From the NCBI GenBank assembly GCA_964016885.1, contig OZ024742.1, forward strand, positions 90,272,001 through 90,336,000: a stretch of 64,000 bases of DNA, given 5' to 3'. Made by a program: the position numbers and the translations under genes. The notes under the pieces were generated by a model. The model was not told where the DNA came from. It did not search any database and worked only from the letters and a program-made list of their open reading frames with translations. Source of the DNA: Eledone cirrhosa. Taxonomy: Eukaryota. This document shows positions 1,040-63,700 of this stretch, in pieces (within the stretch, counting starts at the first letter, position 1; each line of letters begins with the position of its first letter).

Positions 1040-1080
1040 CTATGTACTAGTTTCAAGCTTATTAGCTATCGTCAGCAACG
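1040..1080 (-). ncRNA. Minimal type I hammerhead ribozyme (family A)
   Basis: Minus strand CGUUG-CUGACGA-UAGCUAAUAAGCUU-GAAA-CUAG-UA-CAUAG: intact core, stem II AGC/GCU, palindromic stem III ACUAGU. Confidence 0.75.
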
Positions 1081-1559
1081 TATACCTTCGTGCCAGATGA
1101 TTGAACGTCTGAAAGTTTATACTTTCCTTATGCATATTAACGGCTGAGCAGCCTAATTTGCATATCGAGTGAGTTAATCGGCCGAGCGCACCGAAAACGA
1201 TAAACGGAAAAAATGAAACGAAATTTCATTTCTCACTCTTAGTACGGCTGTTACTTAAATATAAGTATGTATACGTACATACATATATGTATACAGATGT
1301 AAAGTAGTATATATATATATGTAATATACATACTACTGTACGTCTGTATACATATATGTATGTACGTATACATACTTATATTTAAGTAACCGCCGTACTA
1401 AGAGTGAGAAATGAAATTTCGTTTCATTTTTTCCGTTTATCGTTTTCGGTGCGCCCGGCCGATTAACTCACTCGATATGCAAATTAGGCTGCTCAGCCGT
1501 TAATATGCATAAGGAAAGTATATACTTTCAGTCGTTCAATCATCTGGCAGGAAGGTATA

Positions 1560-1600
1560 CGTTGCTGACGATAGCTAATAAATTTGAAACTAGTACAGCG
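1560..1600 (+). ncRNA. Minimal type I hammerhead ribozyme (family A)
   Basis: CGUUG-CUGACGA-UAGCUAAUAAAUUU-GAAA-CUAG-UA-CAGCG; stem I CGUUG/CAGCG, stem II weakened. Confidence 0.7.
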
Positions 1601-1929
1601 TTCCTTTGTCAGTGTTGAACAAAAGAGCAACGATGGTTGCTAGACACTGTACAACTTAATTCGTGATGTTTGTTTACAAACACACCGAGCATTATAAATG
1701 TTCGGTGAACCCATACGTACATATATATATATATGTGTGCATTTATGTATATATATATATACATAATACTGCACGTCTGTATACATATATGTATGTACGT
1801 ATACATACTTATACATATATATATAATTATACATATATATATAATTATACATATATATATATATATATATATATATATATAATTATATACATATATATTT
1901 ATATGTATATATATATTTATATATATATA

Positions 1930-2240
1930 TAAATGTAAGTATGTATACGTACATACATATATGTGTCGTTCCTGTGTCAGTGTTGAACAAAAAGATGACG
2001 ATGGTTACCTGAATACTGTACAGGGTAATTCGAGCTGTTTGTTTACAAACAAAGCGAACATTATAATAAATGTTCGGTAAACCCATATGTACATATATAT
2101 ATGTGTGCATGTATGTATATATATACATACTACTGTATGTCTGTATACATATATGTATGTACGTATACATACATACTTAAAATTTAAGTATCAGCCGTAA
2201 TAAGAGTGAGAAATGAAATTTCGTTTCATTCTTTTCCATT
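1930..2240 (+). mobile_element. Family A fragment with the HHR region deleted/rearranged
   Basis: Matches 1597-1812 then 1375-1430; flanked by (TA)n. Confidence 0.6.
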
Positions 2241-2283
2241 TATATATATATATAATTATATATACTTATATATATATATATAT

Positions 2284-59977: not shown

Positions 59978-60984
59978 TATATATATATATTTATATATAT
60001 ATATATATTATTCAATTTAGGAAAGTTTGTTGATCATTTAATCCGCTGACGTTTTTTGTAAACGGACATAAAGCACTCTATAAAATATCATTTTCGTTTA
60101 TTCTAACTTTATTTGATTTTGTTTTTTTTATTTTCTAATTTAATTTAATTGTTTGATAATATAGTTAATATTACAATTGATGTAGAGAATATAAAACACA
60201 TACAAATGCTCAGATAGATGAGAACCGAACTCACCGAAACTGGAAACTAAAGGAACTAGAATTTATGCTCAGTGCATGGAATTGAGCTAATGGCTCCCTT
60301 TCAAACAAGCTAATTAAGGATGCCCTACAAAGATGTGGCTTTCTGAGAACTTGGGCACAGCTACAACTGAAAAAGAACGAATTTATTCGTGCCTACTCGC
60401 TTGTTCTGCTACACGTGGATCAGTTGAGCCACATTTGGTCAGAGGAGACAAAAGAAGAAGGGGAAGAAGTCGAAAACTAAGAAAAACAAAGTTCCTGGGA
60501 AAAAGAAGGCCCAGGTTCTCTGTGAATTCCACAAGAAAGTGACCTGTTAGCATAGGGCGTCTGGGACAAACTGCGGGTTTGCAAGTCGCACCCATCCTGC
60601 TTATGCCAACTACCCAAGCCAAAACCAACATGTGCAAACAATACAGTGCACAGGGTCACTGTCCAGGATGTATGCTGAGGTTGTACGCACTCCCCTGATG
60701 ACGAGAAGGAAGTATACAGAAGCAGTACAGAGTTTTAACTGGATAAAAGGACTTTTTTTTTAATAACGGAAAAGATAGTGAGACAGATGACTTAGCTTCG
60801 TCAACTACAAAGCCAAATTCAGTCACATCAACACTCGCGACCACCACAAATAAAAGAGCTGGTGTGGCCGCTTCTGATACCCACGCAAGTGCCATATAAG
60901 CAGCCACCACTGATCCCTAAAATGTCACACTAGTGCTACTAGTAAATGATCTTCTAACTGACACTCAGTATGGCTTTCGTCCGG

Positions 60985-61155
60985 GTAGAAATTGTATATG
61001 TTGGGAAGGTGATGTTTCAAATGAACACACACGCCGCTGTTGTTTTCACTTCAATTTATTACAAATTACCGGGTGGTTGGTTCAATAACCCGATGGTTGT
61101 TTATTTATCGTCAAAGCTCTTTCGTCACACATTCTGTGACCTCCTCAGTGACTAC
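60985..61155 (-). mobile_element. Diverged family B PLE 3' end with HHR (61110-61152)
   Basis: GUCA-CUGAGGA-GGUCACAGAAUGUGUGAC-GAAA-GAGC-UU-UGAC conserved while the flanks diverge. Confidence 0.75.
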
Positions 61156-62258
61156 CCTAATAATTTAGCTCCAATTAGTTGAGCGCTTTACGATGTAACC
61201 GATATGGTGGAGAAGAGAGGAACCAACCATAAGCTACCCCGGAAATTCCCTCTACTATGGGGATGGAAACCCCTTACACTGGACGGACATACTAGTAACT
61301 TTCGGCCGGATAAATACGCGGAAACAAATAATAGGATAAACCCCTATTTTCCTGCACCAAATCGCATTTGAACAGAGGCCCCCTCAATTCAATCTATACA
61401 TGGACAGAAGGACAATCATATGGATCATTTTGCATATATGTACTCTGTGTTTTTGCATTTATTCACTATTGGTTCTGTTCTTTTCTTTTGTGTACTTTAT
61501 GTCTGTTTTTCTTTGATTTTGTTCCATGTGATGATAATTAAAACTGTGTACCAGATTCACTAATGCCTGGAGCCCTGTAGTTATAATGTACGGCACTGTC
61601 GTTCAATATGTGGATAGAGTGTCTGGGACACTAGAATCCCTCTCAGAACATATTACTTAAACATCTCCCTCCATATTATTTACTCACTTCAGTCTATATT
61701 TTTACTCACCTCAATCCGAATTATCACCCGAAAAGAATTTTTTTTATTCTTTAATTTCTAATTGTTAATTTCTTAATTGTTTAATTTATAATTTCTGATA
61801 TTTGATTTAGGATTTTAATTTTTATTTCCAACTCTCACTCTTAACTTCCAACGTAAAACCATGATACCTATAATAAGTTTGTTTTCCCTTATAAGGTGAT
61901 GGTCAGTCGTACCGTCAATGCTTAGTGAGGGGTAGTATTATGACCTGTAAAAACTAACACTCTCCCATCCCCTCTGGCTCTCGGCTGACTGCCACAGCCG
62001 TGATGGGTAGCAGTAAAATATGGTACAGGCATTGGTGGGCCATTGTTTTGGATGATAGGGTGAACTGACTAAGCAAATTTCGCTGAAGTCTGCGGTGGCG
62101 AATGGTCAACTTCCTTCGGACATGCGCTTGCGCAGGCCGGTGGGGGTGAATTGGTATTCACAAGGGAGCGGATGAAAAACCCCAAAACACGCAATTCATC
62201 CGTTCCCTTGTCGATCCAATTTGGATTGCCTGGGAAACATAACCTTATTATGTAACAA

Positions 62259-62332
62259 GCTGTCTGATGATGACACGACACTCGCACACAGAACAGTGTG
62301 GCCAGTGTCGTCACTGAAATATATATCATAGC
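62259..62332 (+). ncRNA. Type I hammerhead ribozyme with extended stem II
   Basis: GCUGU-CUGAUGA-UGACACGACAC...GUGUCGUCACU-GAAA-UAUAUA-UC-AUAGC; ~125 nt upstream of (TA)n. Confidence 0.78.
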
Positions 62333-62534
62333 ATTATTATTAAAGGACTTGAACATCTGAAACTACTTCGCTTTTCCTTATTCGATATTTACTCCATCAC
62401 TCCTATGTGGAAAAAGTACGCTGAGTGCTTGAATTGAATTGAATCAATGTTTACCCTTATATATATATATATATATATATATATATATATATATATATAT
62501 ATATATATATATATATATATATATATATATATAT

Positions 62535-63700
62535 ATACATATATATAATACATATATTCATATACATATAATATATATATTACATATATATTCATATATA
62601 TATATCTTATATGCAATATGTTGAAAAGGTAACACACTAGAGAGAGAAAGTGTGCCATCAATAAAACAGGGAAAACCACCAGTGAATGGAATCTATAACT
62701 ATGGAAGGCAGGGTATACACACAATAATTAAAAATATAAATTAAAATGTATATACGCACCTCTATAATTATATAACACACGCGTACAAATCCAAAGTGAT
62801 CTCTTTCGCCAGGAAGTTGTTGACTGAAATACAATAGCCTAGGGTTCATCAGCGCGTACTAGACTATACATTCCAGGCAACTCTAAGATAATCTAAAGCG
62901 ACCGTCCAGCTACACGCGGCAGAGAGATCTCACAGCGTGTTTAGGAAAGTGAAGCAGTGGTATCTGAGGGACGAGCTGCTAGAAAGGGCAGCCCAAAAAC
63001 CACTCAAAGAAGTGTGATGAACCAAACAGAGAGAGAGAAAGGAACGTTGTTATAAGGTGCGAAATATCACGATAAATTAACGGAGCCATAGACTCTCCAG
63101 GATTCCTTTTCCTTTGAGCACATTATTGACAGGGAATAACAAGAGTCTATGGCTCCGTTAATTTATCGTGATATTTCGCTCCTTATAACAGTCTTTCCTC
63201 TCCCTTTGTTTGGTTGAGCACACTTCTTTGAGTGGCTTTTGGGCTGCCCTTTCTAGCAGCTCGTCCCTCAGATAGTACTGGTTCACTGCCCTAAACACGC
63301 TGTGACATCTCTCTGCCGCGTGTAGCTGGACGGTCACTTTAGATTCTCTTAGAATTGTCTGGAATGTATAGTCTAGTATGCGCTGATGAACGCTAGGCTA
63401 TTCCATTTCAGTCAACAACTTACTGGCGAAACAGATCTCTTTGGATTTGTCCGCGTGTGTTATATAGTTATAGAGGTGCGTATCTACATTTTAATTTATA
63501 TTTTTAATTATTGTGTGTATACCCTGCCTTCCATAGAGTATAGATTCCATACACTGGTGGTTTTCCCTGTTTTATTGATGGCACACTTTCTCTCTCTAGT
63601 GTGTTACCTTTTCAACATATTGCATATAAGATATATATATATGAATATATATGTAATATATATATTATATGTATATGAATATATGTATTATGTATATGTA
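62535..63700. mobile_element. Non-coding fold-back element (arms 62535-63095 and 63143-63700) with an HHR in each arm
   Basis: Arms are reverse complements with scattered substitutions; (TA)n both sides. Confidence 0.85.
63377..63457 (+). ncRNA. Type I hammerhead ribozyme with a full intramolecular stem III (partner copy 62778-62858, -)
   Basis: UAUGCG-CUGAUGA-ACGCUAG...CUGGC-GAAA-CAGAUC-UCUUUG-GAUUUG-UC-CGCGUG; GUC triplet. Confidence 0.8.

What the first reader, a model, noticed from the sequence alone, without database searches (positions are those of the whole stretch)
1040..63457. About eleven unrelated hammerhead families in 64 kb
Seen: HHR folds with different stems at 1040/1560/16131, 2844/18334/61110 (plus mutated 2500, 9256), 8322-8410, family C halves, 17065, 28885, 30559, 52592, the 2.1-kb unit (x5), 62259 and 63377. 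Stem III is usually a different palindrome (ACUAGU, AACGUU, AUAUAUAU, AUGAUCAU, ACGAUCGU), as known for dimer-forming PLE HHRs. Where an ORF is linked, the HHR is sense and 3' of it. Inference: this genome may hold a very large, largely unannotated ribozyme repertoire with family-specific dimerisation palindromes.
Basis: partly seen in the sequence, partly recalled or inferred. Interest (0 to 1): 0.7.

Follow-up and report, generated by a model that had tools for sequence, protein, structure and literature searches.

The report
Octopus Penelope-element hammerhead ribozyme debris
This stretch of likely octopus DNA carries 23 hammerhead (self-cutting RNA) motifs from about nine repeat lineages, most likely the tail ends of dead Penelope-like jumping genes; the motif type was described in 2014, and only the very high density stands out.

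Summary
The motifs are real. A type I hammerhead descriptor finds 16 sites, against a mean of 0.24 (maximum 3) in shuffles. Hand annotation gives 23 motifs, 20 with an intact core, and the stems covary. 8322-8410 and the 'family C halves' are not. One family with a U3-A8 core was missed (47889+, 43050-). 'Unrelated' is overstated, since 1560 and 30559 are homologous; about nine lineages remain. The DNA is likely from an octopod and holds seven Penelope-like (PLE) coding remnants; three have a sense motif 3' of the ORF. Palindromic stem III, family diversity, U3-A8 cores and the U.U stem II base are all published. Palindromes are not strictly family-specific: ACCGGU recurs behind related ORFs elsewhere, and ACUAGU and AUAUAUAU are each shared. 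Three families appear to be highly repeated. Rfam finds none at its threshold, so a large uncatalogued repertoire is plausible, but one window cannot size it. Cleavage was not tested. The scan reported similar PLE hammerhead clusters in other genomes before.

The parts
1039..1081 (-). Family A hammerhead, left arm of fold-back 943-1697; stem I degraded to 2 bp next to the core
1559..1601 (+). Family A hammerhead (stem III ACUAGU, U.U at 10.1/11.1, predicted cut after 1595)
16130..16172 (-). Family A hammerhead
30559..30601 (+). E: diverged relative of family A; best-formed motif; Rfam Hammerhead_HH9 32.9 bits (gathering 52)
2844..2886 (+). Family B hammerhead (stem III AGAACU, not palindromic; triplet CUU)
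2500..2542 (-). Family B copy with mutated core
9256..9298 (-). Family B copy with mutated core, about 430 nt 3' of PLE ORF remnant 9726-10746
18334..18376 (+). Family B hammerhead
61110..61152 (-). Family B hammerhead; homology to other copies starts at the 5' edge of stem I
17065..17100 (+). Family G minimal hammerhead (stem III ACGU); a 3' half copy near 16623 has a stem II strand that pairs fully with this copy's 5' strand
28885..28939 (+). Family D hammerhead (AUAUAUAU); 3' half copy near 29960-29990 on the - strand
62259..62332 (+). Family I hammerhead (AUAUAUAU, long irregular stem II); fails the automatic descriptor, annotated by hand
52592..52723 (+). Family L hammerhead: U3-A8 core, stem II region about 100 nt, ACGAUCGU
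51869..52018 (-). Family L, second arm of the same fold-back (11-bp stem I, palindrome broken)
52984..59980 (.). ORF-less 2,104-bp unit in tandem (- strand) plus inverted (+ strand) array; five family H hammerheads at 53032-53089-, 55136-55193-, 57240-57297-, 57624-57681+, 59724-59781+
   Evidence: longest stop-free stretch 92 aa
63376..63458 (+). Family J hammerhead with an 8-bp hairpin stem III (monomer-type); the minimal region folds as a three-way junction
62777..62859 (-). Family J, other arm of fold-back 62613-63623, degraded stems
47889..47924 (+).
43015..43050 (-). Family K, diverged copy with A13 mutated, about 1.1-1.2 kb 3' of PLE ORF remnant 44109-45785
8322..8418 (.). Fold-back hairpin with hammerhead-like pieces; not a demonstrable hammerhead
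8519..8725 (.). Family C: 3' half only (GAAA, long near-palindromic stem III, C, GGGGUC); other copies 6985-7118, 25890-26083, 51577-51775
51021..51065 (+). Incomplete motif M (8-bp stem I, GAA-ACAUAUGU-C, no core or stem II in place) 3' of PLE ORF remnant 49400-50499; second copy near 48935-48980 on the - strand
4678..6952 (-). Broken PLE RT/GIY-YIG ORF remnant; no hammerhead found 3' of it
9726..10746 (-). PLE ORF remnant whose 3' UTR is family B
14417..15502 (+). Broken PLE ORF remnant (Hydra-like linker by eye); no hammerhead in the 330 nt that remain 3'
27384..28110 (-). PLE endonuclease remnant (Pfam GIY-YIG E 0.0037, below cut-off); no hammerhead found 3'
44109..45785 (-). PLE RT + GIY-YIG remnant; relatives are 600-800 aa RVT_1/GIY-YIG proteins
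46169..47005 (+). Broken PLE remnant related to 44109-45785 (33% identity)
49170..50499 (+). PLE remnant with an inverted 5'-truncated copy (fold-back centre 49421)

Best explanation
The window holds 23 type I hammerhead motifs in short, truncated repeats that are likely the 3' ends (pseudo-LTRs) of dead Penelope-like retrotransposons and their ORF-less derivatives in an octopod genome. Shown: the motifs, their covariation, seven PLE coding remnants, and a sense motif 3' of the ORF for families B and K. Inferred from known PLE biology: each active master element carried one hammerhead near its 3' end. Reverse transcription starts 3' of it and usually stops early, so the hammerhead is the part most often left in the genome, often as a fold-back pair in a (TA)n tract. 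In tandem transcripts of the masters, two motifs would pair through the palindromic stem III and cross-pair stem I, and would cut slowly, probably with protein help; family J would work as a monomer. Motif diversity likely reflects many old PLE families, each inheriting its palindrome by descent. Most genomic copies are probably inert.
For: 16 sites vs 0.24 in shuffles. Covariation: A/E, 5 of 13 pairs changed on both sides, 0/500 shuffles as high. K plus five motifs behind related ORFs: 10 of 13 pairs, including C3-G8 to U3-A8 and the inner palindrome pair; 90.6% of cells paired vs 27-43% when slid. PLE ORF remnants in the window. Family B is continuous with the 3' UTR of the 9726-10746 ORF. 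In other loci, 5 of 10 whose match reaches the protein's C-terminal part and that have >=500 nt 3' carry a sense motif 314-571 nt downstream by descriptor, and 2 more by eye. Contig depth in run X1 peaks on the motif bins (568,638; 362,320; 167,135) against 77-338 in the 60020-60999 flank, and 120 to 264 contigs turn unlike at the edges of B's stem I. Inverted and tandem anatomy matches PLEs as described in PMC8557442. O. vulgaris has 190 PLE families covering 6.83% of its genome. Two-copy folding gives the double-hammerhead arrangement for D and palindrome pairing for K and G.
Against: Only B and K are physically linked to an ORF; 0 of 10 other motif-flank regions matched PLE proteins, and 3 of 7 ORF remnants have no motif 3'. 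The covariation sets are small (4 and 7 sequences) and related, the structures were read from these same sequences, and the seven were picked for carrying a motif. The five B copies show no variation at all in stems I and II, so no covariation there. In two-copy folding E, H and B do not adopt the double-hammerhead fold, and the minimal regions of A, G, I and K do not fold as hammerheads on their own. B has a non-palindromic stem III and a CUU triplet. No cleavage data. The depths are summed over contigs, which the tool says is not a copy number.
Confidence: 0.88

Rival explanations
1. Several unlinked families (A/E, H, perhaps J) are non-LTR retrozymes: non-autonomous repeats whose tandem transcripts are cut into monomers, circularised and reinserted by PLE proteins. 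This overlaps with the best explanation and differs in giving the hammerhead an active processing role and in predicting circular RNAs.
For: The 2,104-bp unit has no ORF (longest stop-free stretch 92 aa), lies head to tail with one motif per unit, and its two outer ends fall at different points of the unit. A/E resembles canonical type I motifs with conserved loop sequences. Retrozymes are proposed to be non-autonomous PLE derivatives (10.64898/2026.07.22.740005).
Against: Reported units are 51-972 bp in that preprint (its search stopped at period 1000) and 150 to >1000 nt in PMC7229834. Only 2 of 5 H copies keep the exact palindrome. A/E and J copies here are fold-backs, not tandem arrays. 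In an Anolis PLE, hammerhead mutants did not affect insertion in vitro (PMC11167929).
Confidence: 0.3
2. The palindromes are a selected self-recognition code that keeps co-resident families from forming mixed dimers.
For: Seven different palindromes occur among the complete and near-complete motifs. Predicted self-duplexes are stronger than nearly all cross-duplexes.
Against: A/E share ACUAGU and D/I share AUAUAUAU; H and L cross-pair at -5.6 kcal/mol. ACCGGU is kept in K and in 4 of 5 motifs behind related ORFs from other datasets, and ACGU in G and three more loci, which points to inheritance by lineage. Any two different palindromes pair better with themselves than with each other, so the matrix is no sign of selection. 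In a double hammerhead stem I also pairs between partners (established model), which would separate families without distinct palindromes.
Confidence: 0.1
3. The motifs are chance matches in AT-rich, hairpin-rich repeat DNA.
For: The descriptor was relaxed after inspection. 3' half motifs alone are only about twice as frequent as in shuffles (29 vs mean 14.3, maximum 25). Items 8322-8410 and M may be chance or decay products.
Against: 16 vs 0.24 with the same relaxed descriptor, 0 in reversed and complemented controls that keep the repeat structure; covariation; matching position behind ORFs in independent loci.
Confidence: 0.02

Closest known systems
Minimal hammerheads (min-HHR) in pseudo-LTRs of metazoan Penelope-like elements (Cervera and De la Pena 2014, PMC4209133)
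   Same: Type I topology, short stem I, palindromic stem III, many sequence-diverse families per genome, mostly solo truncated copies, pairs on opposite strands 100-700 bp apart, extra base between A9 and stem II (B, G), U3-A8 core variant (K, L), variants with a small palindromic helix III in flies, rotifers and shrimps.
   Different: Local density is far higher than the published genome totals imply (about 2,000 + 1,300 in Schistosoma, 4,000 in coelacanth, 9,000 in Xenopus). Palindromes here are often 6-8 nt. L has a stem II region of about 100 nt. Octopods are not mentioned in the parts I read; supplements not seen.
Non-LTR retrozymes (Cervera and De la Pena 2020, PMC7229834; Li, Clavereau and Pollet 2026, 10.64898/2026.07.22.740005)
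   Same: ORF-less tandem units with one type I hammerhead each (family H); U.U mismatch at the base of stem II (axolotl HHR_Amex2) as in A, H, I; proposed mobilisation by PLEs.
Rfam hammerhead clan CL00010 (Hammerhead_HH9, RF02275)
   Same: Motif E matches at 32.9 bits, E 7e-6 in a 2.2-kb search.
   Different: Below the gathering score of 52; no other motif in the window matched a hammerhead family at E <= 1.
PLE hammerheads of fungi and protists with a stable helix III (PMC4209133)
   Same: Family J has an 8-bp hairpin stem III and folds as a monomer.
   Different: Here in an animal; no ORF link shown.

Membership tests
Type I hammerhead ribozyme | Core C3(U3)-U4-G5-A6-N7-G8(A8)-A9, G12-A13-A14-A15.1, U16.1-H17 in order | tested here: met
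   20 of 23 annotated motifs; not met in 2538-, 9294-, 43047-, nor in 8322-8410, family C or M
Type I hammerhead ribozyme | Stems I, II, III around the core, open at stem I, beyond chance | tested here: met
   16 vs 0.24 in shuffles; covariation. I and the 1075 and 62852 copies pass only by hand
Type I hammerhead ribozyme | Self-cleavage after H17 | not testable with these tools
   needs a bench assay
PLE min-HHR (dimer type) | Very short, palindromic stem III | tested here: met
   Exact palindrome in A, E, D, I, G, K, and in 2 of 5 H and 1 of 2 L copies. Not met for B (symmetric mismatches) or J (hairpin)
PLE min-HHR (dimer type) | Located in the pseudo-LTR, sense and 3' of an RT + GIY-YIG ORF | tested here: inconclusive
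   Met for B and K. No ORF linked for A/E, D, G, H, I, J, L (0 of 10 flank regions)
Penelope-like elements | Single ORF with RT and C-terminal GIY-YIG endonuclease | tested here: met
   44232-45251 has relatives of 600-800 aa with PF00078 and PF01541 domains; other remnants match it or each other; all window copies are broken
Penelope-like elements | 5' truncation, partial tandems, adjacent inverted copy, microsatellite targets | tested here: met
   Fold-backs for A, B, C, H, J, L and the 49170-50499 remnant; ends abut (TA)n
Neptune or Hydra clade | Clade placement by RT phylogeny and linker motif | not tested
   No tree built. Linkers read by eye only: CxxxxCxxC in 46169-47005, CxCx5C-like in 14417-15502 and 49400-50499
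Non-LTR retrozyme (family H) | ORF-less tandem units, each with a type I hammerhead | tested here: met
Non-LTR retrozyme (family H) | Unit length of about 50-1000 nt | tested here: not met
Non-LTR retrozyme (family H) | Expression as monomeric linear and circular RNA | not testable with these tools
   needs RNA data or a northern blot

The most novel reading that the evidence does not exclude
Octopod genomes may hold the densest hammerhead collection yet reported in an animal, of order 100,000 copies in over a hundred families that Rfam misses, including a giant (2.1-kb) retrozyme-like element and unusual variants (U3-A8 core with a 100-nt stem II). Such a set would allow a direct test of whether stem III palindromes and stem I act as a self-recognition code among co-resident families, and of why so many insertions start exactly at the hammerhead.
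Probability: 0.3. Interest if true: 0.5.

Novelty: new member of a known kind. Interest (0 to 1): 0.3.

Why it matters
As a kind of motif it is known. The value is as a resource. Rfam-based annotation counted 235 hammerheads in the giant squid (PMC6962438) and passes none in this window, which holds 20 intact cores in 64 kb, so cephalopod hammerheads are probably undercounted by orders of magnitude. Many co-resident families in one genome would give the sample size to ask what PLE hammerheads are for, which is still open: in the one reconstituted PLE, cleavage needed the protein and was not needed for insertion (PMC11167929).

Tried and rejected
No whole genome is held for this window, so genome-wide counts and per-family covariance models could not be made. 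Rfam: no hammerhead at gathering score in the window or in two sub-regions; the many miRNA hits are AT-repeat hairpins. A family B pattern found 0 matches in viral contigs. No RNA holder was listed among the runs; this is no evidence on expression. The variant table showed 40 rows with 443 hidden, none inside a motif, so it gave no covariation data. Run X7 is RAD-seq and was not used for copy number; runs X5 and X6 (other organisms, small shares) cover the B and H motifs with few contigs and were not used further. ARAGORN found no tRNA. Lunse et al. 2016 (PMC5785218) is not held; I know it only through a review. 3' half-motif counts are too close to chance to use. A one-mismatch scan gave 5 hits: 3 family copies, and 2 (7726+, 7589-) that I treat as chance because they have no second copy and weak stems; this scan had no shuffle control. 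The upstream CUGAAGA at 50947 was considered as the core for motif M and rejected because it has no stem I. Pairwise flank scores involving 8373, 62264 and 47892 were raised by AT-rich tracts and ignored. Searches for a prior octopus or cephalopod hammerhead report found only the squid Rfam count; subscription papers and most supplements are not covered.
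Full report
Setting. The window is AT-rich animal DNA full of (TA)n tracts and retroelement debris. A galaxin-like exon at 18755-19510 has its three best relatives in Octopus sinensis at 45-48% identity, so the source is likely an octopod; the species was not determined. No genome is held. Besides two other LINE-type reverse transcriptase remnants (my labels R4/Dong-like and RTE-like are recalled, not tested), there are seven PLE coding remnants: 4678-6952-, 9726-10746-, 14417-15502+, 27384-28110-, 44109-45785-, 46169-47005+ and 49400-50499+. 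The frame 44232-45251 has 151 relatives of 595 residues or more, the listed ones carrying RT and GIY-YIG-type domains.

Observation check. A first strict scan found 2 motifs, and a second 6 loose or 2 strict. After reading the sequence and PMC4209133 I allowed a bulge or mismatch at the base of stem II, one mismatch within it, stem II up to 115 nt, the U3-A8 core, and stem III as palindrome, short symmetric duplex or hairpin. This found 18 sites at the loosest tier, 16 at the middle tier and 8 with an exact palindrome. Shuffle means were 0.6-0.66, 0.24 and 0.02-0.03 (200 shuffles each of two kinds; maxima 3, 3, 1). The reversed and complemented window gave 2, 0, 0. One of the 18 (28825) is a spurious register overlapping D. 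Hand annotation of 23 motifs gives 20 intact cores and 11 of those with an exact palindrome. By the repeat map the 23 come from about 15 insertion events, 13 with at least one intact core, because fold-backs and the tandem array copy the motif.

The item at 8322-8410 is a hairpin centred on 8370 with hammerhead-like pieces but no valid stems. Family C has only the 3' half in all 7 arms aligned. A and E are homologous over about 200 nt, so the count is about nine lineages (A/E, B, D, G, H, I, J, K, L). B/D and D/I share short stretches beyond the core, so some of these may also be distantly related.

Covariation. A/E (4 sequences): 5 of 13 pairs change on both sides, 86.5% of cells pair, and no shuffle of 500 reaches the covariation score; all but one of the double changes come from the single E sequence. 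B (5 copies) is invariant in stems I and II. To get independent data I aligned the 44232 frame with 37 of its 120 listed relatives and fetched 50 related loci from metagenome contigs. A similar descriptor gave 12 hits in 159,619 nt against a shuffle mean of 1.76 (maximum 6); 6 hits are sense and 3' of the match. Of the 10 loci whose match reaches the C-terminal part and that have at least 500 nt beyond it, 5 have a descriptor hit 314-571 nt downstream, 2 more (L001, L006) have a motif with a 2-bp stem II seen by eye, 1 has a one-mismatch motif, and 2 have none. The two K copies aligned with the five motifs behind the closest full-length matches show 10 of 13 pairs with double changes, including C3-G8 to U3-A8 and ACCGGU to ACGCGU. 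These rows were chosen for carrying a motif, and the tool warns that related sequences inflate the shuffle test.

Link to ORFs. B is the 3' UTR of the 9726-10746 remnant, with the motif about 430 nt after the frame. K lies about 0.9 and 1.2 kb 3' of the two related remnants at 46169 and 44109. The 49400 remnant is followed by an incomplete motif (M). Three remnants have none. None of 10 other motif-flank regions matched PLE proteins, so PLE origin for A/E, D, G, H, I, J and L is inferred from motif type and from insertion anatomy: 5' truncation, adjacent inverted copies and (TA)n borders, as described in PMC8557442.

Abundance. Laying four runs on 59530-62450, contig depth in run X1 is 77-338 over 60020-60999 and peaks at 568,638 (H), 362,320 (B) and 167,135 (I) on the motif bins. 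The tool states this is not a copy number; I read it only as 'highly repeated, likely thousands of copies'. For B, 120 contigs become unlike at 61110 and 139 plus 264 at 61153-61154, the two edges of stem I, with low agreement among them. This fits a motif conserved among subfamilies with different flanks, or copies truncated at the motif. Twenty intact cores in 64 kb is about 310 per Mb (about 200 per Mb by insertion). Published totals are about 2,000 plus 1,300 (Schistosoma), 4,000 (coelacanth), 9,000 (Xenopus), about 5,000 (mussel) and 120,000 (axolotl), and 235 by Rfam in giant squid. O. vulgaris has 190 PLE families over 191 Mb, 6.83% of the genome, which makes a total of order 100,000 plausible, but this window may be PLE-rich and cannot be extrapolated.

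Mechanism. Shown: sequence, covariation, position, repetition. From the literature: PLE hammerheads with palindromic stem III cut weakly and as dimers (PMC4209133; review PMC6765202); the Anolis PLE motif cut only with the element's protein present and was dispensable for insertion in vitro (PMC11167929). Inferred: the masters used or carried the motif in tandem transcripts, and the window's copies are by-products of 5'-truncated reverse transcription. Two-copy folding gives the double hammerhead for D and palindrome pairing for K and G, but not for E, H or B, so dimer folding is only partly supported by energy models. J folds as a monomer in its minimal region, though a longer context prefers another fold.

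Palindromes as a code. Seven palindromes occur, counting M. Two are shared within the window, H and L cross-pair, and ACCGGU and ACGU recur behind related ORFs in other datasets. Inheritance by lineage explains this without selection for exclusivity.

Comparison with what is known. I found no report of octopus PLE hammerheads; the O. vulgaris repeat paper and its supplement do not mention ribozymes. What I saw: PMC4209133 parts 1-2 of 4; the 2026 preprint parts 1-3 of 5; PMC11167929 part 1 of 4 and passages; PMC8557442 passages and section 11; PMC13282606 passages and its whole supplement; passages only of PMC6765202, PMC7229834, PMC3088659, PMC8967140, PMC6962438; nothing of Lunse et al. 2016. 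Supplements of PMC4209133, PMC8557442 and Lunse et al., which I did not see, may list cephalopod motifs. Earlier notes of this scan describe the same pattern in other genomes; they are leads, not support.

Verdict. Real motifs, correctly typed, with a slightly inflated family count; a new set of members of a known kind. Interest 0.3, resting on density, the 2.1-kb ORF-less unit and the variant cores.

Noticed in passing
window 8586, 25941, 51714 (family C); 16623 (G half); about 29990 (D half); 61153 (B); 8370: Many copies begin or fold back inside stem II or at the 5' edge of stem I. One search also shows a strand-switch joint at 61151-61153 in raw reads (16 reads, 2 starts). This suggests reverse transcription stalls or snaps back at the hammerhead on uncut RNA; no statistical test was made.
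   Followed up: partly
window 1963-2092 (+): A partial family A copy starts about 2 nt after the predicted cut site, as a copy of a cleaved RNA would; a single case.
   Followed up: no
window 52984-59980: ORF-less 2,104-bp hammerhead-bearing unit in tandem plus inverted array, with an internal 338-bp duplication; no Rfam or tRNA match; larger than surveyed retrozymes and apparently highly repeated near its motif.
   Followed up: partly
window 51021-51065 (+) and about 48935-48980 (-): An 8-bp stem I and GAA-ACAUAUGU-C are intact, but only 12 nt stand where the core and stem II should be; lies 3' of a PLE ORF remnant. Probably a deletion in this insertion.
   Followed up: partly
window 47889-47924, 43015-43050, 52592-52723: U3-A8 core variant in two families; L combines it with a stem II region of about 100 nt.
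   Followed up: yes
L001:3750-3790, L006:4213-4253: Hammerhead cores with only a 2-bp stem II and ACCGGU, about 220-230 nt 3' of related PLE ORFs; missed by the descriptor.
   Followed up: partly
window 18755-19510 (+): Galaxin-like cysteine-rich exon with a proline-rich 21-bp repeat; best relatives in Octopus sinensis at 45-48%.
   Followed up: partly
window 33060-36680 (+) and 37799-41200 (-): Remnants of two other LINE-type elements (Pfam RVT_1; the second with an endonuclease domain); not examined for ribozymes beyond the Rfam scan.
   Followed up: no
window 32267-32900, 36670-37584, 41822-42373: Three-copy short repeat family at 94-98% identity, bordered by (ACAT)n tracts; possibly a SINE.
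   Followed up: no
window 4678-6952 (-): PLE ORF remnant with extreme strand skew (C-rich coding strand; GC skew up to 0.6).
   Followed up: no
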